Source: Antedon mediterranea (Eukaryota > Animalia > Echinodermata). From it: a stretch of 64,000 nucleotides of DNA. A program made the translations under genes and the position numbers. The notes below the pieces were generated by a model. It worked only from the letters and a program-made list of their open reading frames with translations. It ran no database searches and was not told the origin of the DNA. The stretch is from positions 31,989,648-32,053,647 of the forward strand of contig NC_092673.1 in assembly GCF_964355755.1 (NCBI RefSeq), read 5' to 3'. Shown here piece after piece: positions 27,059 to 58,801 of this stretch (positions within the stretch are counted from its first letter, which is position 1; each line of letters begins with the position of its first letter).

Positions 27059-27085
27059 GCTTCAACAACTAGTGAAATAATTACA

Positions 27086-37979: not shown

Positions 37980-40283
37980 CAGTCGAGCAGCAAAGTGCTC
38001 ATTTAACCGTTAAAACGCTGTTTTTTAACTGCGCAGGTCACTGAGCATCGCCAAGTTATAGTGACTTCCGGTTCGCTTTTCACTTCGCGGCAAGCATTTT
38101 GCATGGGAATACCCTTACAAATCTGCTGCAATTTCCACCATCCGGGTTAAATTATATCTTTCTATATTTGGAAATTGTTACTCCTAATATGGAAGATTAT
38201 TCCCGCCACAAAATTTTGGTATAAATAGCCCAGGAAATGACGACAGAGCTTATTGAAGAAAAAAGTGCAGATGGAGGTGTTCGTTGAGGTAGGCTACATG
38301 ATTTATTTGTTTGGTTTCGTAGGGAATCCGGCACTTTTCTCATCAGCACGGAACCTTTATAAAAACTTAGTGGTTGGTTATTAGGTTATTAATCTATCTT
38401 TTCTGAAAGTTTAAGCTTGGTTCAGCTTGTGGGACGGATTCAATATCCGTTCAAAGCTGGGGATATATTCTAAGCAGACTCCATCTTGGATTCGTATGTT
38501 TAGTACAGGCCGTGTGGTTGAGTAAATTCAATCCTTCAAAATCACTATGTGCAATCCGTTTTTAAACCAGTTAATATACCAAAATATGTTATTAGTAGCT
38601 TTATTATTTTGGATTTGGTGCTAGTTTGGTAAATATTGCAATATAATTGTAGATTATTTGGTTGTAAAAAAATGTACCCAACTTGTAGTATTATCTAGGC
38701 CTAGGCTAGGCCTAGCCCATTTTTGACGGAAACCCAGTGCTATTTGTAGGCGGATAGAGAGGGCCGCAGGCTAGTTTTTAGTGGCATATCGCCGACTTAT
38801 TATAATCAATGTGAAGCCATATTATTATTATGTTTAAAATGTTGAATCTATATCCACTGGATTATGGATATTTAAAGAAAGGCCTAGGCCTAGACCTTTT
38901 GATTTATTTAATTAATTTAGGACTATATTACGGGAAATTCTTTGCCAAAGAAAAGAAAATACGTTGTGGCTGTTGGAGGTTTGTAAATATATGACAATAA
39001 TGTAGCCTAGGCTAGGAAGGACTGTAGGTAGGATGAGGTTATTTGGATGGTCGTACATATGATATTTATATATACAGTATTGTGTATAGTAGTGATCATG
39101 GCGACAAAATTTAGGATGACTAAATTTGACATTAAAATTATTTAACTATGAATAGCTCATTATTGGTGTTTTTTTTTCTGTCAGGTTTCTAAGAATAAAC
39201 TATCCGACTTGTGATTCATCTTGTGCTGCAAAAACAATCCTATTTTGATATTTGTAAATTGATGTACGTAACAGATGTCTTTTAAAAATAAAAAAAAAAA
39301 TTAAAATTTTTATTATCGCGATGATTTAACTCAAATATTGACATATAACTTGATATTTTAGCCTGAGCAAGATAGTTTGATAGGCATATTTTACTTCGAT
39401 GTAAATAAGATATTACATGTTATACTGTATGTAAAATACTTTTTTGTAAATAAAATTATTTAATGGTGGTTAATTTATTAACTTGTTAATTTGTTTGTTA
39501 GTTATGATGTTATACTATTAATTATTTAGTTATTTAGTAACCAAAGTGGAGTGGATTCGTGGCAGTTGCAACTTGACTGTAATATGCAAATATATAATAA
39601 TATTTACTTCTTCTTGGATAAAGTTAAACCAAAATAAGCAATAATAAAAATTAAATATTTATTTTGCCATAAAGAAAGCAAAAACTAAAAATACAGTACT
39701 ATATGTACAGTAATACCATGGACCTATAGGTCCATGGTAATACATACTGTAGTATTGAGCACCAGTAGCAGAGACGTCTGGACAATCGAATATAATCGTT
39801 ATCAGCTGTCTGGGTACCCAAGGCTAGTGCTAGAAAATGGCGAAAATTCGTGTATTCATTCGCCGTCAGCGAAATGAATCCGGCACTTTTCTCATCAGAA
39901 GCAAATCAACAAATCCTTTTATCAGTTTGTTTTGATATATAATCTGGATAATATATATTAAAATGGCCTTGGTTCAAGCATGTTTAACAGGTAAAATCAG
40001 ATTTTTTCCTACCTAGGCCCCTTAGCACTGCGGTACCCTACGCCGGGTGGGGGAACCGATCTCGGCAGTATTTCTTAAGTAGCCTATCTTTCGTAAAATC
40101 CTTAGTTGAATTTTATTAATATAAATTTAATTGTATGAATATGCTATTTAAATGTTATTGAAATTTTTTTTTGCTGCATTTTGTAATTCCGCACTACTTG
40201 CTTTATCGCGATTCCAAGATGGCGGCAATTCAAATTTTGATTGGGTAATAATTCGCGAGGTCAACCACTTTGCTGCCCGACTG
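37980..40283. mobile_element. 2.3-kb non-autonomous DNA transposon, CAGT...ACTG ends, 4-bp TSD, left arm only
   Basis: TIR cagtcgagcagcaaagtg / cactttgctgcccgactg (17/18); TSD tatg at 37976-37979 and 40284-40287; empty site visible in the right-arm LINE. Confidence 0.9.
39710..39743. other. 20-bp perfect palindrome with 7-bp TSD (P-element-like footprint)
   Basis: gtaatac-catggacctataggtccatg-gtaatac. Confidence 0.7.
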
Positions 40284-41610
40284 TATGTTGAGAACAATAC
40301 CTTATTACCGGCGTACCAATCTGCCTATCGGAAAGGTTTTAGCACAGAGACGGCTTTGGTTAAGTTAACCAATGACGTACTCTGGAATATGGAGCTGCAA
40401 AGGGTGTCTGCGCTGGTATGTATAGACTTGTCAGCCGCCTTCGACACAGTGAACCACGAAGTACTCCTCGACGTTTTGCAGAACAAATTCGGAGTGGCCA
40501 ATGCGGCATTGAACTGGTTTGATACTTACCTTCGTCCTCGATTTGCCAACGTAACAATCGGCGAAACTAACTCGGAGACAGCCAATTTGTCCTTCTCTGT
40601 ACCTCAGGGTAGTATATGCGGTCCAGTTCTATACACCATATATGCCAGCACTTTACAAGATCATATCAGTAAGTTTGATATTTCTGTGATGGGATATGCC
40701 GATGATCACTCAGTGTATGATTCATTTAATCCAAATTATAGTTCTAGTATGGAAAATACAATCACCAAATTACAAGAGTACCTCATATCCATCAACGACT
40801 GGATGAAGTCCAACAGACTAAAAATGAACGGTGAAAAAACAGAGTTCATACTATTGGGAAGCAGAGCTCAACTCCTGAAATGCGAGAAAGATCATATCAT
40901 CGTATGTCAGGACAGAATACCACGTGGTTCATCTGTAAAATACCTTGGTGTTAATATCGACGACCAGCTATCTTTCAAGAACCACATACGTGATAAATGC
41001 AGAACGATAGCTGTTAATTTATACTATATTCGTCAAATCCGCAAATTTCTCTCCAAGGACCTTTGCCAACAACTAGTTCAATCGCTCGTGCTGTCACATA
41101 TTGAATACGCCAATGCATTGTATTATGGTCTACCTGCTAATACCCTTGCTCCAATAAAGAGGTTACTGCACCAAGCTGCGAAAATAATTGTCAGGAAAGG
41201 TCGGTATGACAGTGCAACTAATGCCATGCGATCTTTGTACTGGCTTCCGATGTCTCATAGATGTCAATTCAAAATAGCATGTCTTGTATGGCGTTCGCTT
41301 AAAGGTTCCGCTCCAAGTTACCTGAGAGATATTCTTACTGTGCGGAATGTTTCTCGCAGTACTCGTTCAAGCACCAGCAATTATAACCTGACAATCCCAC
41401 GAACTAAACGAAAGACATTTGCTGACCGTTCGTTCGCCGTAGCAGGACCCAAAATTTGGAACAGATTACCAAGTCACATTAAGCACTTAGACGACTATAA
41501 TCAGTTTAAAAAACATTTAAAAGCACTATATTTCAAAGAATGTTACGATACTAATTGATGTGAAGCGCCGCTGATTATAATTAAATGTTGTATAAATGTG
41601 CGCTATACAA

Positions 41611-41648
<38 letters not shown>

Positions 41649-41734
41649 TATCTTCAAGTTTATTTCTCTTCTCATCTCATAGAAAGAAGTGCTGGACACA
41701 AATAAAGCTTTACAACAATCAGGCAAAGTATTAA

Positions 41735-43460
41735 ACCCATCAAGGCCCATGGGGTCATATTTGACCCGTCACATGACTTAGTCATGTGATTTTACTAGGC
41801 AAATGTTTTAACAAAAAAAATCACTGCAAGACCCATAGGGACAGATAAGGCACAGTTTGAGATCAACAGGAAGTCAATTGAGCCTAGAGTATTTTGTTAC
41901 AGTGTTTACACAATGGCTTCTTCAAGCAGGTAAGCATGCTTCGTTGTCTTTGGATCTTCTAAAGCCTATAACACCTAAAATATTGTGTTATTTGTTTTAA
42001 AAACTAGATAGATATTATCAATAGACTTTATAGATCATGATTATTACAAAAAATAAGTTATAAATTACTTAAATATTTTATTTGGTAGGCGTTTTAAAAA
42101 ATGGGGACATATATGTCCCTATGGCCCTCTATGTTGTGAAACATGGGTCATATATGTCCCAATGGGTCACCATGCTTGTATTGTGTTATAATTATCCAAG
42201 TTCATATGTCAATAATTTATAGAATGTTAGATCTTATTATGACTTTAAAAATACTACACCATATTATTCATTTTCAAAAAGTATTATTTTCTTATAAAAT
42301 TATTATTTTTATTGTGTCTAATTTATAATTGTCATTTTTTATTATATTTTTTTTTTTATAGTAATCGCCAACATAATTTTGCGCGGAAATCATCTTGCCG
42401 GTAGCAATCTCATGTCAGAAAAGGAAATGCAGAAAAAAAGGAAGGAGAGCATGTGACTGGAGAGTAGAAGAGTCGAGTAATGTAGTAGTTGTTAGCTGGT
42501 TGGACACAAAACGAGTAACTTTAATTTCAATTTATGCTGGCGTTGAACCAACAGACAAGGCTGGGACAAAGGGAAAAAAGAATTTTTAGAGGTTACAAGA
42601 CCATCTATTGTAAGCCGGTATAATACCCATATGGGAGGAGTTGACTTAATGGATGCTTGCATTGCCAGATACAAATATCACATCATTTCAAAGCGTTGGT
42701 ATCTGTATTTGTTTTGGCAAGGTGTGTACATAGCCCTTGTGAATGCTTGGCTTCTATATCGCCGGGAATGCAAAGAAGTAGGCGTCGCAAAGAACTCAAT
42801 TTTGAATCAAAGGAAGTTTCAAGCAATAGTTGCACAAACACTCATACAAATAAACACTAAAAAACCATGCAGACCATCAACTTCAGTTGCAGCTAATATT
42901 CAACCTGTAAAGCGTCAACAAAAACGCCCACTTGCAAACGACGATGTAAGGTTGGATAAGGTTGCCCATTGGCCACTAAAAGATGAAAAACGCCGTCGTT
43001 GTGCTATCTGTAAAGTCAACAAGACAGATACAACATTTGAAAAATGCAAAGTAGCTCTTTGCTTTACAGAGAAGAGGAATTGCTTTAGAGAATACCACAA
43101 AAATAGACTTTTCATAATTGTATCAATACAATTATAACAATAGAACAATCACAATTTTTGTTTTTTAATAAGAATTTGGATGTGTAAAATTGTAAATAGC
43201 ATAACAAATCTTTTTACTGAAACTTATGATGTGATTTTTTGATCTTTTTTTGGAAATGTCAATATTTTGTTGTTAAAAAAAATGATTTGTTGTCTATTAT
43301 AACCCATTGGGACATATATGACCCATTACCCAAAACAGGGTCAAAGGTCAAAAGGGCTCAAATTAACATATGGAACTGATTCATGTATGTGTAAAAAGTA
43401 ATACAAACTTGGTAAATATTTTTTATTAACAATAAAATTATGTTTGGGCCTTGATGGGTT
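41735..43460 (+). mobile_element. Internally deleted piggyBac element (PGBD3-like transposase 3' remnant ~42360-43137), left arm only
   Basis: TTAA at 41731-41734 and 43461-43464; TIR cccatcaaggccca / tgggccttgatggg; WLDTKRVTLIS, YNTHMGGVDLMD, KRWYLYLF, C-terminal RRRCAIC..CKVALC..RNCF..YH; empty TTAA site near 53250. Confidence 0.93.
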
Positions 43461-44902
43461 TTAATAGAGAAAGCAGATGAATTGGAATTGTTAAGACAAA
43501 CACAGAAAAAAAATTGTTGCCTCAATGGAGAGGCTACAGGTGTGTTTACCAGGTAAGATATTGTAATGTTTTGTTGAATAGTTTTTTAATACAGTAAAGT
43601 CATATGTTGTATGGGTGTAGATGTTGTGTATCTCAGTTGAAAAGTGGATGACTGAGTCGCTTAGGATTCACTGACCATACAAGGATTATAATTATTCCAA
43701 CCACTTTATGAGTGCTAGCGGTTGTGGCGTTGCGCCTTAGAACTTATCTTTTCGGAAAAAATTCTGCGCATTATAAATATGAATTGAATTGATTATTTGC
43801 AAATTTGCCAAATTATTCCACCCATCATCTACATCATTCAACTTTCTTGTTTGAGAATACAACATATGAAGTGTGTTTGACATGGGAGTTGTCAGAGGAA
43901 GTTGCTATGCTGTTGAACTTTGCACACCACCATTTGTTTAATCTGTTTGTACAGTATGACGACAAATTCATTTGTTTCATTTCAACCAATTATAATTGGA
44001 AAATAATTAATTGGTGTAATTTTAAAATTTAGTTATCCTTTAGTTGTAGAATCATTTTAAGAAACATCACATCACTTATCAAGTACACAAGTAATATTTA
44101 TACATGAATACATTCGTTTTATTGTGTTATTTATGCAGTATATTACATATTTATTTTGCTGGAGTAAAAATTTGTTTGTTTCTTTTTAAATAGTTTAATT
44201 AAAATAATTTAAACTAAATTCCATATCTGTGTTTCATTTTATGTTATGTTAGATACTGTAGATACACTAATAGAATAATATAGAATCTTCTTTTAACTCT
44301 TATAGCAGTATGAACTGAATTATGAAACATTATACCACTATTATACAGCTGACTCTTGTTTAATTTCATATTGTATGTTAATATCAAATGCTGATTGCTA
44401 GCCAGCATTCATTGAACAACCATCATATTTCAACTGGTGGTATTAAGTGTCATATTGATGAGACTGCTATTGTGTACAGAGTGTATTTATAGACTGTTAT
44501 ACAATATTGTTACCAGGGTGCTGATATTGATATCGTGAATAATGTATGAATGCTTCTTAAAATGACTGAGCCACAATGTCAAAGTTAACAACTATTGCAT
44601 GTTCAGTTTCAGTGAGAATCAATTCCGTGAATTTTGTGATCCTCAATATGTGCTTCTTAACAATAACTGAGCCACAATGTCAAAGTTAACAACTAAATAA
44701 TGCTTCTTAAAATGACACACAATGTCAAAGTTAACTGTACAATAATAGTATACATTCAGTTTTAGTGAGAATCAAATTTTCAGAAATCTGAATACAAATT
44801 GTTTCATTTGTGATCTTCCATTGTTATGAAAAATCATAAAACTAGTCATGTAATTATATAATAGTAGTAAAAGAGGTACTTCAGACCCGACCTTGGTGTA
44901 TT

Positions 44903-45199
44903 TCATAATTACGTAATAGTTATGTAATTTCCGCCAGGTGTTTCTAATGAAGGTTGTTCTTTTCATAATTACGTAATAGTTATGTAATTTCCGCCAGGTG
45001 TTTCTATTGAAGGTCATTCTTTTCCTGTTATTGTAATAATTATGTAATTTCCGCCAGGTGTTTCTAATGAAGGTCGTTCTTTTCCTGGTTTTGTAATAAT
45101 TATGTAATTTCCGCCAGGTGTTTCTAATGTAGGTCATTCTTTTCCTGGTTTCGTAATAATTAAATTATTCTTAATTAATGAATTTCCGCCAGGTGTTTC
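44903..45199 (-). repeat. 60-bp tandem array (5 cores aatttccgccaggtgtttc), left copy
   Basis: Cores at 60-bp spacing 44926, 44986, 45046, 45106 plus one at ~45181. Confidence 0.9.
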
Positions 45200-45220
45200 T
45201 TTGTCTCTTAATTATTAATT

Positions 45221-45257
45221 TTTGGCGCGAGGTTCTGGTACGTGGTGAGTGACGTCA
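45221..45257 (+). promoter_or_regulatory. E2F-like site and CRE, left copy
   Basis: tttggcgcg 45221-45229; tgacgtca 45250-45257. Confidence 0.4.
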
Positions 45258-45335
45258 TTACTTTATTTACGATTTAAGACGGTGTAACAAAGTGAATCGG
45301 TTATTGTTGTACTATTTTCCAGTTGTTTTGCCTAT

Positions 45336-46285
45336 TTTTTGAATTTTTTTAAATTTCTTTATTTAGTAATCAAGGTTAAAAAACAATAAAAACAATGCAA
45401 AAAAAGTAGAAAAAACAATTGCACAGAAACACAGGCCTTGATTACAAGGAATGCCAAGAAAAGTTAAAAACTTATTTCTACTTGGGTCCTAAAAACAAGG
45501 AACTGATAAAGAACATACAAATTACATTAAAGAATCCTTAAAAAATGGCATAAAAATATAAAAGTTTAAAAATAACAGTTTATCTAACACTTATCAAAAA
45601 TTTAATCCTAATTTACAGTTTTAAGAAAGATTTATAATAAGAGATATATACAAAAATTGATTTATTGCACTAAAGTAACAAAATTACAATTATTATTATT
45701 ATATTTATATTATTTATTCTTAATTTACAGATTACAGAAAATTATTGATTTACTGCATTATGCTAAAACCTTTTTATAATTTATTGCACATGAGAATTAA
45801 ATGTTGAGGAGATGCTTTTTTAGTGACAATTTAAAATTTTCTAATGAAATATTACTTTTAACATATAATGGTATAGCGTTCCAGGCTTTTATTGAGTTGT
45901 AATAAAAAGTTTTTTGTTCGCAGCCCTTAATTATTGGAATCCTATAATTTAAATTTGTGGCACTACGTGTCCTTCTAGAGTGGTAATCAACAATACGAAC
46001 AAAGTTACTATTTAGATACATTAGAGCAGAATTATTAAAAATTTTATATACATTGCATAAACATTTGAACTTAACTCTTTCTGGGACGTTCAGATATCCG
46101 ATTGATTTCAGCTCAGATTGACCAACATGAGATCTCGAATCTGATTGAGTAATAAATCTGAATATTTTGTTTTGAGTAGTCTGAAGCCTGAGTTTGTGAA
46201 CCTGAGAAGAGTCCTTATACCATGCTGGGGAAGCATAGTCAAAAAGATGCTGAATTAGAGCTGAAGAGAAAAGTTTCCTACTACC
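45336..46285 (-). mobile_element. 3' fragment of an L2/Crack-type LINE at the inner end of the left arm
   Basis: SALIQHLFDYASPAWY..LQTTQNKIFRFI..HSRRTRS..TFYYNSIKAWNAIP..FKLSLKKHL; A-rich tail ending ~45336. Confidence 0.75.
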
Positions 46286-48426
46286 AAATTGTGCTATTTT
46301 TTAATAATTTGTGAAACTAATTTGTATTGTTTACCGCATGTTACAATTGATGATTTCCTACAGATAATAAACCGTTTTGGTGGTTATAGTAGTATAACGT
46401 TTTAAGCAGAATCACACTCTATGAAAAACAACACATTTTAACCATGAGGTGTAGATAAAATGCAAATAAAATGAGTTGGTTTTTAAAAGTAATCATAAGT
46501 ACACTTTTTACAAAATATACGAACAACATGGAGGACTGCAAACTATACGAGTATAAACAAGTAATATAACTCTGCTAGAGAAACACTATCGATATTAACA
46601 AACGTAATTATAAACAATGAGATGGTGTAAACACCGAAAAACATAGGTTACTGTATAACAATGCAAGAAAAACTTGTTATCCCCATTATCAATTGTTTTC
46701 TCGTGTCGCTATGTTGACTTTAAAAAAAATTGTTTTATCGTAGGTCGAGTACAAATTGGCAAGGTTTAGTTGAATGGGACTCCCACACACCTCTCCCACA
46801 CTCATTCAGAGTACTGTTCTTGTTTGTTATGAGTTGTCAAGAAAAAGTAAAGATATAAAGGATTTGTGAAAAGATATTACACCTGATGAGTTAAATAATG
46901 TGTTGGCTAAAATGATGAGTGACCAACAAAATACATATCAGTAGACTTGTTACAGTACGGTACGGTACTTGCAGTATGTGCATGTGTTGCGACGCAATGC
47001 GAAACTGTTTTACAATTGGAAAACGCTAAACGCGTCTCCTGTGATGGACACAATTTAAAGTTATTATAAATTCATAACGAAAATGATTTGTTTGGTGTAT
47101 TTTCTTTTGTTTTGTCTATTATTTATATAAAAATTAATATATATTTATTAATGTGTACGTGTTTCCTTAATTTGTAATTTCCAGAAACTTCTACGCAAAT
47201 CAGTAGCTCAGTCTTGTGATTGGTTAATTGTTCTTGTATGATAAACCGTTTAAAATAGTGACGTCATGTTTTTCAGCCTAATATTGTGCCTCGATGATTT
47301 CATCAATACCACCAAAAATAAACCATTTACTGTGGAACTTTTTTTTTTAAATGGTGCTAGATTAAGGGATTTTTTCATCATCTACGGTAAATTAAAACAT
47401 TCAGAGAACTATAGGTAACAATCAATAAGAGGATATTTACAAAGAACCGTTAAAATGTAGGCCTATGCCGTTATAAGATTTAGCCTGCAAAGCGAAAAAC
47501 AAGGCCTGTAAAAAAATTAATAATGCTTATGAACAGCGGAAGATTCATAACAAGAAAAACAAAATGTCGGTAGATAAACGTGTAGAAAAAAAGTGACAAT
47601 ATTTATTAAAACCAAAGTAGTTCTAAGAATATCTAATGGCAATAACCTGCACGTAAACAAATTTCCATTTTTGGCTCCGGTTGAAGGTCTTGTTTTCTGT
47701 TAAAATGTATTAAGTGTCAAGAAATACAATTGGTAACCAAAATGTCTTTCTGTATTCGATAATTATGATTTCTCTGAGTTTGTTTGTTGTTGTTGCAATT
47801 ATGATAAAAGTAATATTAAATAATACACAGATATCGGTCATTTCTCACGATTGAATTCATAATTTTTATTTACAATACCACTTACAGTAAAACTATCGTA
47901 GATGTACATGGTCTTTATTGTAATAATATTAATCACACATATGTAGATAAATCATTGATACATGTACGAAAATATGTGCTATTATTAGTGTTATTATAAC
48001 GTGTTTTTTTTTTGTTTGTTTTTTTTGTGTTTAATCTACCAGTCCGTTTCAAACGTTACAAGTACCTATTACTCTTGAAATTACGATTAAAATGCTTTAA
48101 AGAAAAACTTACACACTTATTAAAAACATAAAAAATTGTATTTAACAATTAGAAACACATTACAAGTTACTTTTAAGAAATTATTCGTAAAGTTAATCAT
48201 TATCCACAAAAAGAAAAACAATCACATGATTATTAACGATCAATGGAATTAGGCCTAGATCTAAATGAATTAACTTCAATACAATAATACAACCATTTGT
48301 AGGAATATCATCACAAAAATAATTCAACTGGTACTACTATACTAAATGAGAACAGATCATGAACAGTTGATATTCTTGAGATCTACAATCACTATTAAAG
48401 ACTGCAATGTTTGCGTAACATTTCTC

Positions 48427-50260
48427 TCATCTTTTAATATCTCTAAACCTGAGATTTATTCTTGGTAGCTTGATGGATTGATTTTTAGGAAGTGAATGGT
48501 ACCAGTACTCATTAGTGGGATAATTCATCATTAATAATGTACCGTGTTTAAGATCAACAGTTACTGGCTCAATGATTCTTTTGGGACTCTTACCTCGCGC
48601 ATCACCATGTCGAAATCTAAACATACGTGTTTGCCCCAATGATACAGAGGCGATTGGACTAAAGTGATCCATGTCTTTCTCATCGTCTTTGTGTTCGCCA
48701 ATGTAATCACTTCCAGTAGCATATCTATAGAGTAACAACAAAATACAATAGAAAATAAGATATTTTAAGATGAGACTAAAAAACCCCAATTATCCATTAA
48801 AACAATCTTATCTAACAAATTGCAGAAATCATCCAGTATGAATACTGATAGTGTTCAATCGTTTTAGAGGTAAACTATGGACCCTTTTAATCAATAAAAA
48901 AAATAAATAAATAAAATAATAAACAAGAATAATTACCGGTTGACCAAAACAAAATTGAAGTAATGTCCTGTAGCCGATTTTAAAAGGTCGCGGAGATCTT
49001 TCAGGAATGGTGGCCACGGTAAAGCTGGTACTGTATTGCCTGAATATTTGTAAGTTAAGCCCGGATCGCTAAACGAAACCTGCAGAGAGGAAACCATACA
49101 AAGAAAGTCATTTATTATTTGGCGAGATGTAAATGAACACGCCTAAATAAAATAATTTACAGTAAAAGAGTAAATTATACCTATAGCTGCACAGTAAATA
49201 AAGAAAAACAAAGGAAACGATATACAAGTAATTAACAAGTCATTAATACAAAACCACGGATAAAAACATAATGGAACTAACCTGTTTTCTAGGAATATTA
49301 AACCACTTTCCATACACTTTCACCTTTGTAAGATCACCGGTAAAATAGTCAATCTCTTCCTCACATTTTTTAAACAAGGTATCGGCTGCTCCTTTATCAA
49401 GAAGTTGAAGGTAATCATAGTCTAAATTTTCCCCTATTATCTTTTGCACCGATAACTTATCAGGAGGTAGCAATTGATGTTCTGAATTGAATAAACGTCC
49501 TCCATTATCGTTTTTGTCAACACCCCTTCAACAGAAGCTGCATTATCATTACCAACCTCCTCAATCATCTTTTGTATTTCACCGTGTTTTTCAATTAACT
49601 TGAACCACTGACTCTTTGAAAGGTTTACACATTTTTTACCGGGTTTAAACTTTCCTCCTTCTTCAGACTGGTAATAGCGGCGAATACACACAAATTGTTC
49701 TTCTTTCCAGTTACTAACTACCACATGAATTATGTCCGAAAGTGGGATTCTTATTGCCTCCACCATGTTAATGTCTCTTTGTAAGTCTTCCAGTGACTGG
49801 AGAATTAAATTGATATTGTTAAAAAGTTTTTGCCACAGCAGAACGGGTAAATTATTACCTAGAGGTCCAGGTTTGAAGGCACCATATTCTTCCGTTTGGT
49901 AATACTCTCTGAGACAAACATAAACATCGTCACCCATCGTTGGGCCACTACATGGCGTTTTTCAGACAAGAAAATCCGATTCTTTGAAGTTATGGAAATC
50001 TTTGGTACATCATCGGTCATTACGGCAAAATCCCGGGCGCTCATTCCTGAGACTTTACTAAAACCATTACACTCATCTGTTTGACCATTAAAAGAATTCC
50101 TAGGATCCAATATATTCGCTGATGTAGAAGCAATCGTTGGTATTTTTAAACTGCTACACTCGTCAGCTTGACCATTAGAACTCCCCATAACTCTTTTCAT
50201 TGTCCTACGGGCTTTCTCACCAATTGCTAATTTCGGAGAAGGTAAACAGTTGAAACTCAT
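48427..50260 (-). CDS. ALKBH2: Tandem PC4 (Sub1/p15 ssDNA-binding) domains fused to a complete ALKBH2-like 2OG-Fe(II) dioxygenase; exons 50260-49282, 49079-48937, 48724-48427; two single-base frameshifts (~49935, ~49472) in exon 1
   Basis: PC4 repeats IFLSEKRHVVAQRW/GDDVYVCLREYY..FKPGPLGNNLPVLLWQKL and LSDIIHVVVSNWKEEQFVCIRRYY..FKPGKKCVNLSKSQWFKL; AlkB part GENLDYDY..VKVYGKWFNIPRKQ|VSFSDPGLTYKYSG..PWP..FNFVLVNR|YATGSDYIGEHKDDEK..IASVSLGQ..HGTLLMMNYPTNEYWYHSLP..RINLRFR with HxD...H and R...R intact; GT-AG introns in phase. Confidence 0.85.
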
Positions 50261-50341
50261 GTTTATAGACTGTAGAGAGTTACAGAGAGCGAAACGAATG
50301 ATCGTTGACAACTCTGAACGATTACGCTTGAATCAGATCAG

Positions 50342-50352
50342 ATATATATATA
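50342..50352 (-). promoter_or_regulatory. Putative TATA box upstream of the PC4-ALKBH2 gene
   Basis: TATATATATAT about 80-90 bp upstream of the ATG at 50260. Confidence 0.3.
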
Positions 50353-50472
50353 CAGTTATTAATTGATTTTTTCCTGTCAATTGTTTCGCTGCAACATGTG
50401 CTAATTAAAGCATTATTAACTTTTTTGTTTGTTTTCCGGTCATTCGTTTCCGTGACACGTGCGAAACACAAT

Positions 50473-50982
50473 TTAAATGTCCTCGCACAACAGCTTAAAA
50501 ATAGTCTCTGAATTAATCAGGATATTTACAAGAAAATAAACGAAATGTCTATACCGAGGCAATGAATATTCTCCGTGCATATTTAGTTCGTTGTAAACGG
50601 TATCGGCTGAAACATACTTCTTATCCAGAACCTCCCGATAAAAATAGAGACTTCATACAACAGAAATCATGATCTTTTTGACTGCTCCTGTCAAATTCAC
50701 AACCATAACAAGCCGCTTTACTTAACAACCAGCACTGGGCTAACACTTGAGCAACAAACAATTGTTTAATCAAACGCTTCATTTTCAACAAAAATTCTCT
50801 CTCCACCTCGTCTACGTACGTAAATATACAACTTGTAGGCCTGTTACTCCTCTCGACTCCTTCATCTATTTCGACGGGGATAACCTCTTCGGCCTCCCTG
50901 GAACAACAGTCTCCTCATCATCGCTAATTATTATAACAGTATCTGCACAACTCCCTTGCGAAAAATATATACTTCCAGACAT
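50473..50982 (-). pseudogene. Small intronless ORF with a CYGC-x5-SQ-x2-H-x2-CC putative metal-binding motif, broken by two frameshifts
   Basis: MSGSIYFSQG..ISDDEE / EEVIPVEIDEG..KAACYGCEFDRSSQKDHDFCCMK / YREVLDKKYVS..LLCEDI*. Confidence 0.5.
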
Positions 50983-51092
50983 AGTAAAATACTGTAAAGA
51001 GATTCTACGCAAAGATAGGCAAAACAACTGGAAAATAGTACAAAAATAACCGATTCACTTTGTTACACCGTCTTAAATCGTAAATAAAGTAA

Positions 51093-51129
51093 TGACGTCA
51101 CTCACCACGTACCAGAACCTCGCGCCAAA
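51093..51129 (-). promoter_or_regulatory. CRE and E2F-like site upstream of the spacer genes
   Basis: tgacgtca 51093-51100; cgcgccaaa 51121-51129; ~110-150 bp upstream of ATG 50982. Confidence 0.45.
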
Positions 51130-51150
51130 AATTAATAATTAAGAGACAAA

Positions 51151-51448
51151 GAAACACCTGGCGGAAATTCATTAATTAAAAATAATTTGATTATTACGAA
51201 ACCAGGAAAAGAATGACCTTCATTAGAAACACCTGGCGGAAATTACATAATTATTATGAAACCAGGAAAAGAACGACCTTCATTAGAAACACCTGGCGGA
51301 AATTACATAATTATTACAATAACAGGAAAAGAATGACCTTCAATAGAAACACCTGGCGGAAATTACATAACTATTACGTAATTATAAAAAGAACGACCTT
51401 CATTAGAAACACCTGGCGGAAATTACATAACTATTACGTAATTATGAA
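51151..51448 (+). repeat. 60-bp tandem array, right copy
   Basis: gaaacacctggcggaaatt at 51151, 51226, 51286, 51346, 51406. Confidence 0.9.
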
Positions 51449-53335
51449 ATACACCAAGGTCGGGTCTGAAGTACCTCTTTTACTACTATTATATAATTAC
51501 ATGACTAGTTTTATGATTTTTCATAACAATGGAAGATCACAAATGAAACAATTTGTATTAAGATTTCTGAAAATTTGATTCTCACTAAAACTGAATGTAT
51601 GCTATTATTGTACAGTTAACTTTGACATTGTGTGTCATTTTAAGAAGCATTATTTAGTTGTTAACTTTGACATTGTGGCTCAGTTATTGTTAAGAAGCAC
51701 ATATTGAGGATCACAAAATTCACGGAATTGATTCTCACTGAAACTGAACATGCAATAGTTGTTAACTTTGACATTGTGGCTCAGTCATTTTAAGAAGCAT
51801 TCATACATTATTCACGATATCAATATCAGCACCCTGGTAACAATATTGTATAACAGTCTATAAATACACTCTGTACACAATAGCAGTCTCATCAATATGA
51901 CACTTAATACCACCAGTTGAAATATGATGGTTGTTCAATGAATGCTGGCTAGCAATCAGCATTTGATATTAACATACAGTATGAAATTAAACAAGTGTCA
52001 GCTGTATAATAGTGGTTGTGTACTGTACAGTATGAATATACATGTATAGTATTGTTACCTTACTGAATAAGTTCATGATTAAAATGAAGAATTCTTATGA
52101 AAATTAATTATTTAAGTTCAGTGGCAAACATAACAGTAAATAAATGGGACTGAACCAAAAGGACATAAGTTCACAAAGAAAAAACATATTTTTTTACCAA
52201 AATTAAAATGGAATTAGACATTAATTTTCTACATAATAATATCTATATTTAAACAATTAAACAAGAATAACAATTAATATATCAGTCCCACTTTCAATTC
52301 AGTACCAAAGTGATTAATTAATAATAATAGTTTATTTCATCCTTGATTGTCTATTTACTACTGTCATTCCCATTAAAACCATTTTCTGGCATAATTCAGT
52401 TCCTACTGCTATAAGAGTTAAAAGAAGATTCTATATTATTCTATTAGTGTATCTACAGTATCTAACATAACATAAAATGAAACACAGATATGGAATTTAG
52501 TTTAAATTATTTTAATTAAACTATTTAAAAAGAAAAAAACAAATTTTTACTCCAGCAAAATAAATATGTAAAATACTGCATAAATAACACAATAAAACGA
52601 ATGTATTCATGTATAAATATTACTTGTGTACTTGATAAGTGATGTGATGTTTCTTAAAATGATTCTACAACTAAAGGATAACTAAATTTTAAAATTACAC
52701 CAATTAATTATTTTCCAATTATAATTGGTTGAAATGAAACAAATGAATTTGTCGTCATACTGTACAAACAGATTAAACAAATGGTGGTGTGCAAAGTTCA
52801 ACAGCATAGCAACTTCCTCTGACAACTCCCATGTCAAACACACTTCATATGTTGTATTCTCAAACAAGAAAGTTGAATGATGTAGATGATGGGTGGAATA
52901 ATTTGGCAAATTTGCAAATTATCAATTCAATTCATATTTATAATGCGCAGAATTTTTTCCGAAAAGATAAGTTCTAAGGCGCAACGCCACAACTGCTAGC
53001 ACTCATAAAGTGGTTGGAATAAATATAATCTTTGTATGGTCAGTGAATCCTAAGCGACTCAGTCATCCACTTTTCAACTGAGATACACAACATCTACACC
53101 AATACAACATATGACTTTACTGTATTAAAAAACTATTCAACAAAACATTACAATATCTTACCTGGTAAACACACCTGTAGCCTCTCCATTGAGGCAACAA
53201 ATTTTTTTCTGTGTTTGTCTTAACAATTCCAATTCATCTGCTTTCTCTATTAATACTTTGCCTGATTGTTGTAAAGCTTTATTTGTGTCCAGTACTTCTT
53301 TCTATGAGATGAGAAGAGAAATAAACTTGAAGATA

Positions 53336-53370
<35 letters not shown>

Positions 53371-55008
53371 TTGTATAGCGCACATTTATACAACATATAA
53401 TTATAATCAGCGGCGCTTCACATCAATTAGTATCGTAACATTCTTTGAAATATAGTGCTTTTAAATGTTTTTTAAACTAATTATAGTCGTCTAAGTGCTT
53501 AATGTGACTTGGTAATCTGTTCCAAATTTTGGGTCCTGCTACGGCGAACGAACGGTCAGCAAATGTCTTTCGTTTAGTTCGTGGGATTGTCAGGTTATAA
53601 TTGCTGGTGCTTGAACGAGTACTGCGAGAAACATTCCGCACAGTAAGAATTTCTCTCAGGTAACTTGGAGCGGAACCTTTAAGCGAACGCCATACAAGAC
53701 ATGCTATTTTGAATTGACATCTATGAGACATCGGAAGCCAGTGCAAGGATCGCATGGCGTTAGTTGCACTGTCATACCGACCTTTCCTGACAATTATTTT
53801 CGCAGCTTGGTGCAGTAACCTCTTCATTGGAGCAAGGGTATTAGCAGGTAGACCATAATACAATGCATTGGCGTAATCAATATGTGACAGCACGAGCGAT
53901 TGAACTAGTTGTTGGCAAAGGTCCTTGGAGAGAAATTTGCGGATTTGACGAATATAGTATAAATTAACAGCTATCGTTCTGCATTTATCATGTATGTGGT
54001 TCTTGAAAGATAGCTGGTCGTCGATATTAACACCAAGGTATTTTACAGATGAACCACGTGGTATTCTGTCCTGACATACGATGATATGATCTTTCTCGCA
54101 TTTCAGGATTTGAACTCTGCTTCTTAATAGAATGAACTCTGTTTTTTCACTGTTCATTTTTAGTCTGTTGGACTTCATCCAGTCGTTGATGGATATGAGG
54201 CACTCTTGTAATTTGGTGATTGTATTTTCCATACTAGAACTAGAATTTGGATTAAATGAATCATACACTGAATGATCATCGGCATATCCCATCACAGAAA
54301 TATCAAACTTACTGATATGATCTTGTAAAGTGCTGGCATATATGGTGTATAGAACTGGACCGCATACACTACCCTGAGGTACAGAGAAGGACAAATTGGC
54401 TGTCTCCGAGTTAGTTTCGCCGATTGTTACGTTGGCAAATCGATGACGAAGGTAAGTATCAAACCAGATCAATGCCGCATTGGCCACTCCGAATTTGTTC
54501 TGCAAAACGTCGAGGAGTACTTCGTGGTTCACTGTGTCAAAGGCGGCTGACAAGTCTATACATACCAGCGCAGACACCCTTTGCAGCTCCATATTCCAGA
54601 GTACGTCATTGGTTAACTTAACCAAAGCCGTCTCTGTGCTAAAACCTTTCCGATAGGCAGATTGGTACGCCGGTAATAAGGTATTGTTCTCAACATAAGC
54701 TATGAATTGGTTCAAGCATGCGCGTTTAACCAGCTTGGATACGAAGGACAGATTGCTTACTGGCCTATAATTCCTGAGGATACATTCAACACCATTCTTT
54801 TTTATAAGCGGTTTTATAACTGATATTTTCCATCTATGAGCAAATACGCCGTTACACAACGAGTTGTTGATCATCCTTGTAATAAGTGGTAGAAGTGTAT
54901 CCAGATGCTGTTTCACCAGTGTCGACGGTAGGGGGTCAGTGGAGCAGGTTGTTGGTTTTGCGCATATGATCAACTTCCTAACATCATCTTCGCTAACTTC
55001 CTGAAATG

Positions 55009-58000
55009 GGAGCTTGTAAAAACAAAAATAAAAGAATTTTCAATTGCATACGGAAAACAAAAAAATAAAAACCAGAATAAAAAGAAAGAAAAATTACAAA
55101 AACAAATAAAAAACTTAAATGAAACAATTATGAATACTCAAAATTGTGATATAACCATTGAAAATAAAATTGAAAACAAAAAAATAGAGCTTGAAAACAT
55201 TTATAATGTAGAAGCAAAAGGCGCGCAAATTAGGTCCAGAGTAAAATGGATAGAGGAAGGCGAGCGGAATACAAAATACTTTCTTGGGTTAGAAAGATCC
55301 AAAAGTAAAAAGAAACACATAAAAAGTTTAATTACTAAAGATGGGAGCTTAGCAACGAGCCCAATTGATATTTTAAAGGAACAAATACAACATTTCGAAG
55401 GTTTATACGCAAAAAATGTTATAAACCCTGGAAAAATTAATAAATACCTTTGTAATTCTATTATAAACAAGCTTTCAGAAATAGAAAAAGAAAATTGAGA
55501 AGGTTACGTCACTATTGAGGAATGTAAAAAGGCCATTTCAATGATGGAAAAAAATAAAACACCTGGATCGGATGGTCTAAGTGTTGAATTTTATGTGTTC
55601 TTTTAGAATAATATTAAACATTTAATTTGCGATGCGTTAAATGAAAGTTATAATTCTCAAGAATTATCCTTTTCGCAAAAACGAGGTGTAATCACCCTTT
55701 TGTTCAAGGATGGAGAAAGAGAAAATTTGAATAATTGGCGTCCCATTACCCTCTTAAACACCGATTACAAAATTCTTGCACATGTATTAAGTAACAGACT
55801 TAAAATGGTTATTAAATCAATAGTAAGTTCAGACCAAAAAGGTTATATAAAAGGCCGTTTCGCTGGTGAAAACATTCGGTTAATAGAAGACCTGCTTTAT
55901 TATACAGAGTGTAATGATATCGAAGGGGCAATAATTACCGTAGATTTTAAGAAGGCTTTTGACTCTATTAGTAGAGATTTTATGTTCAATGTTCTAGAAA
56001 AGTTTAACTTTGGAATGTTCTTTTGTAACTGGGTAAAAGTATTATACAATAACGTTGAATGTGTCACAGTTAACAATGGTTGGGTTTCAAACAATTTTAA
56101 AATGGAAAGAGGTATTAGACAAGGTTGTCCTCTATCTGCTCTGTTATTCATTTTAGTGGTTGAAGTAATGGCATCTAGAATAAGAAACAAAGATGACTAT
56201 AAACTTCCAAATAATGAAAATAACATAGAAGCTAGAATAAGCCAATTAGCCGATGATACTGTTTTGTATGTTGGTAATGACAAAAGTATTAAGTCAGCAG
56301 TCAGTGTAATTGAACGTTTTTGTGAAGTATCTGGAATGACACTAAATAAAAAAAAAACCAATGCTTTTTGGATTGGTAAATGGAAGAACAGAATAGATAG
56401 ACCTTTAGAATTAAATTGGGTAAAACACCCAATCAAAATTTTAGGCATATATGTAGGGTATAATACAGAAGAATGTACCAGAAAAAACTGGGATGTTAAA
56501 TTAATAGAGCTAGAAAAGACTTTAAAACAATGGAATGCTAGAAATCTCTAAATTTTTGGTAGAATAATAATCCTGAAAAGTCTTGCACTATCTAAATTAA
56601 CATATGCTTTTTTTTTTCTCTTTCGTGGGGGTCACCCACATTTATTCATTCCTTTTACAAATATAAATTATATAACATACATACATTTTTATAAAAATAA
56701 AGAACAATAAAATGCAATATATCAGCTAAAAAGTCACTATATCTATACATGTACATAAAATCGATGGAGTAAAAGTATGCTTTAAAAACGTACATTTTAT
56801 GTTTATTGCAAGTTATAGTAAAAGTACAACTATTTATCATTTAAATTTACTTTATATTAAGAAATGTATTAAAAAGTAGCTGTTTCTTTTATTATATCTT
56901 AAATCAGTACTCACAATTTGTTTCTTTATTTCTTTTGACCTTATATTACATCCGTTACAAATATATACACACATACACACATTAATATACCTATTTACAT
57001 TTACGAATCAGTTTAATCTAGTTATTATAAACACATTATATGCTACTTTTTATGTTTTGGCCTTGTATAACATTTGTTTCATTCCACTATTTCTATTCCT
57101 TTAAAGTTCTTTTCTTACTATGTTGGCCCTTTAAAATTAACATATGCTGCAAATATCACTGATGTTCCAAAATATGTATATACAAAAGTTACAAATCTAA
57201 TATATAATTTTATTTGGAACAATAAAAGGTAAAAGATAAAAAGAAAAACTCTAATTGGTGATGTTGAGATGGGAGGCATTAAAATGCCTGATTTTACTCT
57301 TCATGTTAACGCACTCATGTGTGGCTGGTTAAAAAGAATTATGAATGATGATGGTGCTAAATGGAAAAATATTCCAATGTATTATATTAAAAAAATATGT
57401 GATGTTAATGTTTTACTTAATATGTCATGTTATAACATTATTGATGTTAATTCTGATAAAATTCTACTGTTTTACAAAAATATGATAAAAGCCTACATAA
57501 ATTATAACAGAATCTCTAAAAAAAAACCCTGAAACTTATAACGATATAATGAATGAGCAACTGTGGGGAAACCACTACGTTAAACTAAAAAAAAAAACGC
57601 TTTTCTACAAGCATTGGATTGACAGTGGCATTATCAGTATTAAAGACATTGTTAATAAGAACACTTTTTTAACATCGAACGAAATACTGGTGAAACTACA
57701 ATGTAAAACAAACTGGTTAAATGAGTATTTGTGCATTATTAAGGCAATACCAATTCAATGGAAACGTATTATTAAGGAGGTAGATATTTTCAATTGTGAT
57801 GATAATGATGAAGTAGTTGGGACTAAGTATGAGATTAATACTACCAAACTAATATACTCATGGTTTGTGAAAGAATATTTCATTATTCCAATGTCACAAC
57901 TAAAATGGGAAGAGTACTTCAATGATAACAACATTGATTGGAAAACTTCTTGGTTACGGAAAGTATGTAAAATGAAAGATAAGAAACTAGCACAATTCAA

Positions 58001-58801
58001 TTATAAGATGTTACATAGAATACTGCCTACCAACAAACGGCTGTATCAGTGGAAAGTTAAGGAAACACAAACGTGTGACAAATGTGGAGAAATTGAAAAT
58101 GAAAATCATTTGTTTTTTAGTTGTAGATTTATTCAGAAATATTGGAGGAAAATGCTTAGTATCTTTGTAAGTTTAAATCACAATAATATATCATTTAAAC
58201 AATTAATACTAGGAACGGCAGATAAGCTAATAGATTATATTTACACTTTTGCAGCATTTACTATTTATAGAATAAAAATGTTATCTGCACTAAATAAGCC
58301 AGTGGGTAAATCTTTATGGAATTCATTTAAAAGCAATATGTTATATAACATTGAATGTGAAACATATAACAATAAAGAAACAAGTATAGAAAAATGGGTA
58401 GCTTTAAGAAATAAGATTATGATAATATAAATTCTAATTTGATACGATTAACCGAAAAGGAATTACAGTGATACGGGTTACTGGTGGTACTGAGCTATTA
58501 TTGTTTTTTTTTATCATGTATATAAATATATTGTATAATCCGGGTTGTAAAATGAAAACAAACAAATGAAAATGTGTGAACTATTTTAAAACGGGATAGA
58601 TGATAATGATGATCCTGTCAAGTGTATAACAAAATATAAGAAAATTAATGAAAAAAGGAGTAATACAGAATTCATATATGTAAAAATGTTACTTATGAAC
58701 TGTAACGACATTTACAAGGTAAATAATACGATTTTATGTAATATGAGATAATATGAATGTGAATAAAAGTGGTGTTTGCGCCACAAAAAAAAAAAAAAAA
58801 A
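55009..58801 (+). mobile_element. 5'-truncated Tx1/L1-clade LINE, right arm only
   Basis: GAQIRSRVKWIEEGERNTKYF, NWRPITLLNTDYKI, DFKKAFDS, RQGCPLS, QLADD, CDKCGEIENENHLFFSC; poly(A); 14-bp TSD aacttcctgaaatg at 54995-55008 and 58802-58815. Confidence 0.93.
56609..57133 (-). mobile_element. Short 3' end of a second L1/Tx1-type retroposon inserted into the Tx1
   Basis: Poly(T) at 56608; 15-bp TSD aaattaacatatgct at 56594-56608 and 57134-57148. Confidence 0.8.

What the first reader, a model, noticed from the sequence alone, without database searches (positions are those of the whole stretch)
48427..50260. PC4-PC4-ALKBH2 fusion: candidate ssDNA-targeted alkylation-repair module of a mobile element
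Seen: two tandem PC4-like domains run into a complete ALKBH2-like domain with no intervening intron; catalytic HKD...H and R...R residues and two GT-AG introns are intact. The only breaks are two single-base losses in short runs (TGGG vs TGGGG ~49935; AATT vs AATTT ~49472), which may be sequencing errors or recent decay. Established: PC4 binds ssDNA as a dimer, so a tandem pair could act as a single-chain dimer; ALKBH2 reverses 1meA/3meC, lesions that form preferentially in single-stranded nucleic acid; some viruses carry AlkB domains; canonical ALKBH2 has no PC4 domain. Inference: a host ALKBH2 captured at DNA level and fused to element-borne PC4 to protect ssDNA replication intermediates (strand-displacement or rolling-circle), or to remove host-imposed methyl marks. 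I do not know of a description of this architecture.
Basis: partly seen in the sequence, partly recalled or inferred. Interest (0 to 1): 0.88.

Follow-up and report, generated by a model that had tools for sequence, protein, structure and literature searches.

The report
Maverick PC4–ALKBH2 repair fusion in crinoid
A feather star carries many copies of a gene that joins two predicted single-stranded-DNA-binding domains, likely from a virus-like Maverick transposon, to a copy of the animal's own DNA-repair enzyme ALKBH2, which would likely let the element repair methylation damage on its own DNA as it replicates; the copy in this window is broken.

Summary
The fusion is real. The window is Antedon mediterranea; RefSeq model P0004 is this locus. 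The minus-strand gene at 50260-48427 has two PC4 repeats, an ALKBH2 domain and two GT-AG introns. Nine of 16 family proteins carry PC4-PC4-ALKBH2, on six chromosome-size sequences, and seven are uninterrupted. Unfused ALKBH2 genes exist separately. The AlkB half nests among crinoid ALKBH2 (100/99), so it is host-derived. The PC4 pair's best viral fold match is adintovirus MOSUB. The gene lies 1.2 kb inside a 477-bp terminal repeat that begins with the Maverick motif AGTAGT, exactly where empty-site contigs diverge. No polymerase or integrase is in the window. This copy is truncated and probably decaying (13 private substitutions against 0-5 in close paralogues). Best reading: a Maverick captured host ALKBH2 and fused it to its own predicted ssDNA-binding protein, which would tether 1meA/3meC repair to its replication intermediates. 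Function is untested, and a neutral passenger is not excluded. I found no such fusion outside Antedon or in print. AlkB capture by mobile elements is known; this architecture is new.

The parts
51011..51487 (-). Terminal inverted repeat of a Maverick-like element, 477 bp or more, starting AGTAGT at 51487, with 4.2 copies of a 60-bp subterminal repeat (51190-51438)
   Evidence: Empty-site contigs stop matching at 51488 in X1, X5 and X3, and at 51492 in X11; depth falls about 30-fold beyond 51640 in X3. End motif and size range as in PMC8097293.
50440..50982 (-). Broken upstream ORF (ORF1) with an acidic N-terminus and a Cys/His motif (CxxC...H..CC); function unknown; end approximate
   Evidence: Pieces in three frames; contigs carry extra letters near 50902 and 50644; no Pfam hit above cut-off and no PHROG hit. 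A likeness to Maverick accessory proteins is recalled, not tested.
49937..50260 (-). Fusion gene, N-terminal low-confidence region and start of PC4 repeat 1, up to frameshift 1 (near 49933)
   Evidence: tblastn of P0010 residues 1-109, 90% identical; pLDDT mostly under 50.
49527..49931 (-). PC4 repeats 1 and 2, up to frameshift 2 (near 49523)
   Evidence: PF02229 E 1e-16; two PC4 stretches in paralogues; folds.
49282..49521 (-). Linker, fusion junction (about 49500) and first part of the ALKBH2 domain
   Evidence: Contigs span the junction in X1 (record 4) and X5 (records 22, 23).
49080..49281 (-). Intron 1, 202 nt, GT-AG, phase 0
   Evidence: joint 49076-49279 with CT..AC ends in 3 contigs of X1 and 1 of X11.
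48937..49079 (-). ALKBH2 exon 2
48725..48936 (-). Intron 2, 212 nt, GT-AG, phase 2
   Evidence: loose end at 48725 in 2 contigs of X1 that reads as the end of exon 2.
48427..48724 (-). ALKBH2 exon 3 with HxD, second His, R..R and the stop codon
   Evidence: PF13532 E 9e-19; motifs.
46290..48426 (.). Non-coding interior of the same repeated element
   Evidence: Depth several-fold above the flank and 550-860-nt contigs in X2, X5 and X6; other copies continue with other sequence before 46287; no stop-free stretch over 60 aa.
45340..46290 (-). LINE 3' fragment that replaces the rest of the element in this copy; its A-rich tail abuts the second repeat
   Evidence: 167-aa stop-free frame 46300-45800 (LINE C-terminus recognised from recall, no Pfam hit); lower depth than the element.
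44863..45339 (+). Second, inverted copy of the terminal repeat (9 mismatches in 477), also starting AGTAGT
   Evidence: empty-site contigs stop at 44862 in X3, X5 and X6.
35282..61191 (.). Inverted duplication of the flank centred on the element; arms 97.8-98.8% alike, with separate transposon insertions in each arm

Best explanation
The gene is a multi-copy fusion of two PC4 repeats to a crinoid-derived ALKBH2 domain, likely formed when a Maverick/Polinton captured a host ALKBH2 gene behind its own PC4 gene, and the protein is predicted to clamp onto single-stranded DNA exposed during the element's replication and so would hold the demethylase where 1-methyladenine and 3-methylcytosine lesions arise. 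Shown: the architecture, the copies on several chromosomes, the host origin of the AlkB half, and the position of this copy inside an AGTAGT-ended terminal repeat. Predicted: the PC4 pair folds as a single-chain pseudo-dimer like adintovirus MOSUB and Pur-alpha. Inferred: capture at DNA level (introns kept); ssDNA binding; catalytic activity; action at the strand-displacement fork, on the displaced strand or the duplex next to it; benefit to the element. The copy in this window is a truncated, probably decaying one. Odds: Maverick origin about 0.85, active enzyme in uninterrupted copies about 0.75, a role in the element's replication about 0.5.
For: Family: 9 of 16 proteins in the four clusters have two PC4 stretches plus AlkB above cut-off, on 6 chromosome-size sequences; 7 are uninterrupted. 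Host origin: the fused domains form a clade (100/99) inside crinoid ALKBH2 (100/99), sister to unfused P0017 (84/78); grouping with vertebrates is rejected, p-AU 6e-5. Element: AGTAGT falls exactly at the empty-site junction, and the hexamer occurs 41 times in 128,000 strand positions; it is the commonest Maverick end motif and 477 bp is near the mean repeat size (PMC8097293). PC4 pair: pLDDT mostly 81-96 per block over residues 101-250; top viral match MOSUB of Branchiostoma lancelet adintovirus, E 7.8e-7, 185 columns; top solved match Pur-alpha repeats I-II, Z 10.9, rmsd 3.5, 130 residues across both repeats. Its closest sequence relatives are several PC4-only proteins of the crinoid Anneissia, one tandem, none fused. 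Constraint: between subfamilies P0010 and P0016 the AlkB domain is 197 of 203 identical, the PC4 repeats 65 of 74 and 67 of 80, the linker 21 of 30, the N-terminus 20 of 43. Nematode Mavericks carry intron-bearing cargo next to the left repeat (10.1101/2022.07.12.499685).
Against: No polymerase, integrase, ATPase, protease or capsid gene was found in the window, and the surroundings of the other copies could not be read, so linkage to Maverick core genes is not shown. No target-site duplication can be read. The high AlkB identity between subfamilies could come from recent recombination and not from selection; dN/dS could not be computed. Human ALKBH2 is described as working poorly on ssDNA (PMC9370705), though another paper says it handles both forms (PMC2965238 abstract). 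Expression of the fusion is only suggested: the spliced contig of X11 continues into the unfused gene P0017, and one of three spliced contigs in X1 is 9% diverged. The crinoid-unfused-only grouping is not rejected (p-AU 0.35), so the exact donor paralogue is unsure. P0020 (PC4-PC4 without AlkB) shows that the family also exists without the enzyme.
Confidence: 0.55

Rival explanations
1. Neutral passenger: the fusion arose once by chance in a Maverick lineage and multiplied only because the element transposed; the AlkB half does nothing for the element.
For: Copies are young (94-100% alike within the main cluster); several are truncated or broken, including this one; an unfused PC4-PC4 form exists (P0020); the listed contig-versus-window differences in coding sequence split 7 synonymous to 7 non-synonymous (14 of the 40 rows shown, out of 364).
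Against: The AlkB domain is the best-kept part between the two subfamilies (97% against 84-88% for PC4 and 47% for the N-terminus). The fused clade has a stem of 0.15 changes per column with the catalytic residues kept; seven copies are uninterrupted.
Confidence: 0.22
2. Counter-silencing aid: the enzyme would repair 3-methylcytosine that host DNA methyltransferases leave when they silence integrated copies, or oxidise 5-methylcytosine, acting on the integrated element and not on the replicating one.
For: ALKB2 repairs 3meC introduced by DNMTs and tends to be lost with them (PMC7343188, passages). The domain keeps features linked to duplex use.
Against: The element shows no mark of germline CpG methylation: CpG observed/expected 1.36 in the terminal repeat, 1.24 in ORF1 and 1.01 in the interior against 0.25 in the right flank; 2 of 15 listed transitions are in CpG context against a background of 0.18. 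This could also mean successful escape. A PC4 pair would not be needed for duplex DNA.
Confidence: 0.1
3. Host gene family: a domesticated chimeric gene that now serves the animal (for example repair at transcription or replication bubbles) and spread by segmental duplication or by another transposon.
For: No Maverick core gene in the window; spliceosomal introns are present, whereas vertebrate Maverick core genes are intronless; the repeat sits inside another high-copy motif that begins near 44823/51527; a MULE re-captured Maverick cargo in nematodes.
Against: High depth runs continuously from the terminal repeat through the gene to 46290 and stops at the element's end; copies lie on 7 chromosome-size sequences; the PC4 half matches an adintovirus protein best.
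Confidence: 0.1
4. Annotation or assembly artefact: PC4 and ALKBH2 are neighbours joined by gene prediction, or the copies are assembly duplicates.
For: Models are predictions; P0004 skips this locus's frameshifts with false introns; the locus lies in a large inverted duplication.
Against: The junction lies inside one exon; contigs of two samples span it; paralogues differ by 1-19% and lie on different chromosomes.
Confidence: 0.03

Closest known systems
Adintovirus (animal Polinton/Maverick) MOSUB accessory protein (A0A5H3CIS2, A0A5H3CT48; map label in the supplement of PMC8502044)
   Same: Tandem PC4-type fold of about 200 residues (E 7.8e-7); the label stands next to an ITR label in one map row, as the PC4 gene here lies near the terminal repeat.
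   Different: No catalytic domain; 21% identity; function untested; the main text does not mention it.
Human ALKBH2 (PDB 3rzg, 3s57) and unfused crinoid ALKBH2 (P0017, P0135, P0018)
   Same: E 9e-71 to human ALKBH2 against 1e-22 to ALKBH3; 149-169 of 203 identical to crinoid ALKBH2; metal and 2-oxoglutarate residues, hydrophobic hairpin and long R-G-K loop kept.
   Different: N-terminus replaced by PC4-PC4; multi-copy and element-borne; no RKK loop and no APIM-like motif, which the unfused crinoid proteins lack as well.
Orchid Ty3/Gypsy elements with a captured AlkB m6A RNA demethylase (PMC9289625)
   Same: A transposable element took a host AlkB-family gene and kept it through rounds of amplification; activity was shown there.
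   Different: Retrotransposon, plant, ALKBH5/9-type RNA enzyme, separate ORF, no nucleic-acid-binding partner fused.
Viral AlkB domains (plant RNA viruses; giant DNA viruses such as Yasminevirus and Orpheovirus)
   Same: AlkB carried by a selfish replicon, proposed to protect its genome.
   Different: About 30% identity or less, not crinoid-derived; in RNA viruses part of the replicase; none listed with PC4.
Nematode Maverick cargo genes wasp and krma (10.1101/2022.07.12.499685)
   Same: Intron-bearing, host-like genes between the left terminal repeat and the core genes.
   Different: Proteases and kinases, not a repair enzyme, and not fused to an element DNA-binding protein.
Pur-alpha repeats I-II (PDB 3k44) and the PC4/Sub1 homodimer (6ycs, 4bhm)
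   Same: Two PC4-like repeats in one chain form the dimer surface (Z 10.9 over both repeats; Z 6.4, rmsd 1.6 for one repeat on human PC4).
   Different: Sequence is PC4-type (30-32% identical), not PUR-type (7%).

Membership tests
Maverick/Polinton (adintovirus) | Terminal inverted repeats of about 50-1500 bp | tested here: met
   477-bp pair, 9 mismatches. Caveat: the pair lies within a larger inverted duplication.
Maverick/Polinton (adintovirus) | 5'-(AGT)2 or (AG)3 end motif | tested here: met
   AGTAGT at 51487 and 44863, exactly at the empty-site junction; motif from PMC8097293.
Maverick/Polinton (adintovirus) | 6-bp target-site duplication | tested here: inconclusive
   Both flanks are the same sequence inverted, so the other half of the target is not in the window.
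Maverick/Polinton (adintovirus) | Protein-primed DNA polymerase and retroviral-type integrase | tested here: not met
   None between the repeats; no polymerase hit in 32 of the 39 ORFs of 100 aa or more that were scanned, and the one integrase belongs to the BEL/Pao retroelement. This copy is therefore filed as a Maverick-derived fragment, not as an autonomous member. Other copies could not be read.
Maverick/Polinton (adintovirus) | Capsid, packaging ATPase and protease genes | tested here: not met
   No room or ORF for them between 45340 and 51010.
Maverick/Polinton (adintovirus) | Dispersed, similar copies | tested here: met
   Family proteins on 7 chromosome-size sequences; raised contig depth over the whole element.
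ALKBH2 | HxD...H iron triad and R...R 2-oxoglutarate motif | tested here: met
   alignment to 3rzg.
ALKBH2 | Groups with ALKBH2, not ALKBH3 or AlkB | tested here: met
   E 9e-71 against 1e-22 and 2e-3; nested in crinoid ALKBH2.
ALKBH2 | Hydrophobic F1 hairpin (V101-F102 equivalent) and long R-G-K loop | tested here: met
   V-Y-G-K-W and R-G-K present; sea-urchin ALKBH2s also have Tyr there; roles from PMC2965238 abstract and PMC9370705 passages.
ALKBH2 | RKK DNA-binding loop | tested here: not met
   Absent, but equally absent in unfused crinoid P0017, P0135 and P0018, so it is a crinoid trait and not a result of the fusion.
ALKBH2 | Demethylates 1meA and 3meC | not testable with these tools
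   Needs an assay.
PC4/Sub1 (PF02229) | PC4 profile match and fold | tested here: met
   Two stretches, 77-83 bits against a cut-off of 25; Z 6.4, rmsd 1.6, 66 residues to 6ycs.
PC4/Sub1 (PF02229) | Two-subunit ssDNA-binding surface | tested here: inconclusive
   The model of P0020 packs both repeats like Pur-alpha I-II, but pTM is 0.57 on a 10-row alignment, and the full-length model left this part under pLDDT 50.
PC4/Sub1 (PF02229) | Binds ssDNA | not testable with these tools
   Needs an assay.

The most novel reading that the evidence does not exclude
An animal polintovirus lineage in feather stars has built its own replication-coupled repair enzyme by fusing a captured host ALKBH2 to its single-chain ssDNA-binding protein. 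It is kept by selection, and it turns a duplex-preferring demethylase into one that patrols the displaced strand, which would show that alkylation of exposed ssDNA limits Maverick replication and would give the first function for the MOSUB gene.
Probability: 0.4. Interest if true: 0.8.

Novelty: new variant of a known kind. Interest (0 to 1): 0.62.

Why it matters
Mavericks have never been watched replicating, and their accessory genes are mostly unexplained. A recent fusion of the PC4-like accessory protein to an enzyme of known chemistry points to where that protein works and what threatens the element's DNA, and it can be tested in vitro with naturally uninterrupted proteins. It adds an animal DNA element to the short list of selfish replicons that took an AlkB gene. 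It also gives a natural test of whether an ssDNA-binding module can change ALKBH2's substrate choice. It matters for annotation too: a dozen or more 'ALKBH2-like' models in Antedon are probably mobile-element cargo and not a host repair expansion. The limit is that it is known from one genus-level lineage and nothing is yet shown about function.

Tried and rejected
No whole genome is held, so other copies' surroundings, introns and dN/dS could not be read. Scans for related loci found nothing: viral contigs with P0020 and with alignment A4, metagenome contigs with A2 and with a 22-nt repeat motif. No RNA holder was listed; run kinds are not on record, and all laid data were contigs, which drop rare variants, so neither frameshift could be confirmed or dismissed as a sequencing error. 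The full-length model on a 59-row alignment folded the AlkB domain (pLDDT 93-99) but not the PC4 part; a PC4-only alignment fixed that. Long AlkB proteins from other organisms were checked for a hidden PC4: none in the 21 non-crinoid rows scanned, or among all 287 stored proteins with a PC4 profile. The Branchiostoma 1411-aa ALKBH2-containing model has Sushi and Kringle domains, not PC4. Horizontal transfer of the AlkB half from vertebrates, suggested by one shared loop, was rejected. An 8-nt match that might be the LINE's target duplication (45332 and 46294) is low in complexity and was not accepted. Scripts had intron 2 off by one or two bases; their AlkB counts for the window are void and one search replaces them. 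PMC11662393's 'PC4' is a cluster label. The founding Polinton paper was not held. No complex prediction was run, as no binding between separate chains is claimed.
Full report
Observation. The minus strand carries a reading frame from ATG 50260 to a stop at 48429-48427, in three frames joined by two one-base frameshifts and two GT-AG introns (49281-49080, 202 nt; 48936-48725, 212 nt). With X at the breaks it gives 472 aa with no internal stop, and the HxD, second His and R..R motifs are present. The raw ORFs hit Pfam PC4 (E 1e-16) and 2OG-FeII_Oxy_2 (E 9e-19) above cut-off. The first frameshift is near 49933. The second is near 49523, not 49472: the AlkB-side frame already matches the paralogue's linker from 49521 on.

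Organism and family. A search with the PC4 ORF for longer proteins returned 4 hits among 272 candidates, all from the crinoid Antedon mediterranea. P0004 (XP_071948928.1) matches the window letter for letter where compared and is the model of this locus; it hides both frameshifts behind false introns. The four clusters hold 16 proteins on 7 chromosome-size sequences. Nine of the 16 have two PC4 stretches and an AlkB domain above cut-off, on 6 sequences; seven are uninterrupted in the alignment (P0001, P0006, P0007, P0010, P0011, P0013, P0016). These are predicted models, but none is named low quality. Antedon also has unfused ALKBH2 genes, P0135/P0019 and the near-identical pair P0017/P0133, and one PC4-PC4 protein without AlkB, P0020. 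Contigs of two samples span the fusion junction (X1 record 4; X5 records 22, 23).

Range. With P0001 as query, 213 proteins were found and the best 120 listed; only three Antedon rows carry both Pfam families. In the library of 1.84 billion representatives, 7952 hits were found and the best 150 listed; only the Antedon cluster spans both halves. A PC4 profile run over all 287 stored proteins hit only Antedon family members and seven PC4-only proteins, five from the crinoid Anneissia and two unnamed. A divergent fusion ranked below these lists is not excluded. Runs of a second coded organism hold pieces of both the PC4 part and intron 1 (X11), so the family may be shared by a relative; a contig across the junction was not listed there.

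Origin of the halves. In a 32-row tree of the AlkB domain, the seven family rows form a clade (100/99) inside crinoid ALKBH2 (100/99), within Antedon (80/64) and sister to P0017/P0133 (84/78). An 18-row tree rejects a grouping with vertebrates (p-AU 5.6e-5) but not a grouping of the three unfused crinoid proteins (p-AU 0.35). So the donor is a crinoid host gene, probably of the P0017 lineage. The PC4 half ends in a D-x-N-D-N-G motif shared with the unfused Anneissia proteins, and similarity to P0017 begins just after it, which places the junction near 49500. The model of P0020, whose repeats are 84-86% identical to P0010's, is confident over residues 101-250. Among 48,161 solved chains its best match is Pur-alpha repeats I-II (Z 10.9, rmsd 3.5, 130 residues over both repeats), and one repeat matches human PC4 (Z 6.4, rmsd 1.6). 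Among viral models the best match is MOSUB of Branchiostoma lancelet adintovirus (E 7.8e-7, one of 2 matches under 0.001), with a second adintovirus MOSUB at rank 35. The Atlas shows tandem PC4 proteins in nematodes, green algae and bacteria, so the tandem itself is not new.

The carrier. The gene lies in the unique loop of nested inverted repeats. At 51487 the hexamer AGTAGT opens a 477-bp repeat with 60-bp subrepeats, mirrored at 44863-45339 with 9 mismatches. Contigs that lack the element stop matching at exactly 51488 or 44862 in X1, X3, X5 and X6, and X3 depth drops from 23,000-78,000 over the repeat to about 1,000 beyond 51640. The hexamer occurs 41 times on both strands of the window, so a chance match at a fixed junction has odds near 3 in 10,000. 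PMC8097293 (passages read) gives 5'-(AGT)2 as the commonest vertebrate Maverick end and repeats of 46-1447 bp. Depth stays raised from the repeat through ORF1, the fusion and a non-coding stretch to about 46290, where a LINE fragment takes over and other copies continue differently. Depth is no copy number, but 9,100 at 49932 against about 320 for single alleles fits the protein count in order of size. No polymerase, integrase or capsid gene was found in the window, so this copy is a Maverick-derived fragment, and linkage of the fusion to core genes remains to be shown. In nematodes, intron-bearing cargo sits between the left repeat and the core genes (10.1101/2022.07.12.499685, passages). In the supplement of PMC8502044 the label MOSUB appears once, beside an ITR label (the file was cut when stored); the main text does not mention it.

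State of this copy. It has 13 private residues in 383 aligned positions, against 0-5 for ten close paralogue models and 16 for the one full-length member of the second subfamily; three lie at AlkB sites invariant in 9 of 9 outgroups. Its branch is 0.038 against 0.005-0.01 for close paralogues. ORF1 is broken as well. In X3, 8,959 of 9,101 depth at 49932 differs in length from the window. Decay is the simpler reading, but both frameshifts are in short homopolymer runs and contigs cannot exclude error. On its own the first frame would end after 133 residues.

Expression. X1 has three contigs that skip intron 1 and two loose ends that read as the exon 2-3 joint; X3 and X5 show no such joint. Against this, the spliced contig of X11 runs on into the unfused gene P0017, and one spliced X1 contig differs at 20 of 224 letters, so some of the splicing signal belongs to the host gene. 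Transcription of the fusion is likely but not shown.

Mechanism. Polintons are thought to copy themselves with a protein-primed polymerase that displaces one strand (recalled). PC4-type dimers bind ssDNA, and 1meA and 3meC form mainly where bases are unpaired (recalled). ALKBH2 reverses both (PMC2965238, abstract). The captured domain keeps the hydrophobic hairpin and the long R-G-K loop, and lacks the RKK loop and an APIM-like motif, as do the unfused crinoid proteins. Sources differ on ssDNA: efficient on both forms (PMC2965238 abstract) or poor on ssDNA (PMC9370705, passages). The most likely working is therefore a tether: the PC4 pair holds the displaced strand or fork, and the enzyme repairs lesions on that strand or in the duplex beside it, without needing the host replisome. 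Support for selection is indirect: between subfamilies the AlkB domain is 97% identical, the PC4 repeats 84-88%, the linker 70% and the N-terminus 47%, which recent recombination could also give. The counter-silencing rival draws on the DNMT-ALKB2 link (PMC7343188, passages), but the element is not CpG-depleted and its listed transitions are not CpG-biased (2 of 15 against 0.18).

Comparison and novelty. Capture of AlkB by selfish elements is known: orchid Gypsy elements with a working m6A demethylase and plant RNA viruses (PMC9289625, passages), and giant viruses. PC4-like genes are annotated in adintoviruses, and two unchecked earlier notes of this scan report them beside Polinton polymerases. 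I found no report of a PC4-AlkB fusion, of ALKBH2 in a Maverick, or of this Antedon family in six literature searches (listings and abstract starts read), which cover open-access text only. Supplements of the bioRxiv cargo paper were not seen and could list further cargo types. Verdict: a real, new domain architecture, a new variant of host-gene capture by Mavericks, restricted so far to one crinoid lineage, with function inferred. Interest 0.62.

Noticed in passing
window 35282-45339 and 51011-61191: A 26-kb inverted duplication pivots on the element's two terminal repeats; arms are 97.8-98.8% alike, about as diverged as the repeats (9 of 477), with separate LINE and piggyBac-like insertions. 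Contigs show a third allele at about one third of the depth at 44413 (14 of 39 in X2; 324 of 946 in X3), a weak hint that the duplication is real and on one haplotype; a join of two haplotypes is not excluded.
   Followed up: partly
window 44823-44862 and 51488-51527: The 40 nt just outside the AGTAGT end are themselves a very high-copy AT-rich motif that ends in a short palindrome; one allele leaves the window at 44822. The Maverick seems nested 40 nt inside another repeat; a target preference is untested.
   Followed up: partly
window 50440-50982 (-): Broken ORF1 with two hydrophobic-acidic stretches resembling SUMO-interaction motifs (recalled) and a CxxC...H..CC motif; other copies are longer near 50902 and 50644.
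   Followed up: partly
proteins P0017/P0133: Two near-identical unfused ALKBH2 genes on one chromosome, sister to the fused clade; their first residues weakly resemble the start of Anneissia PC4-like proteins (E 0.006), so they may themselves be element-related.
   Followed up: partly
proteins P0017, P0135, P0018: Crinoid ALKBH2 sits on a long stem (0.54) and lacks the RKK loop and the N-terminal APIM-like motif seen in 3 of 5 other echinoderm-type proteins scanned.
   Followed up: no
window 26549-33017 (+): Nearly intact BEL/Pao LTR retrotransposon with 501-bp LTRs 98% alike; gag, pol and integrase ORFs of 505, 893 and 409 aa.
   Followed up: no
window 14581-20790 (+): Cluster of a C2H2-finger ORF, a CxC4-like stretch (15941-16255) and two OTU-like pieces (20002-20790), mostly under Pfam cut-off; may be a decayed KDZ/Zisupton-type element (the family link is recalled).
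   Followed up: no
window 61190-63257: A foldback element with 75-bp tandem units begins exactly where the large inverted duplication ends.
   Followed up: no
window 18364-18794 and 22320-23116: Two perfect tandem duplications (215 and 398 bp, 100% identical), either very recent or assembly artefacts.
   Followed up: no
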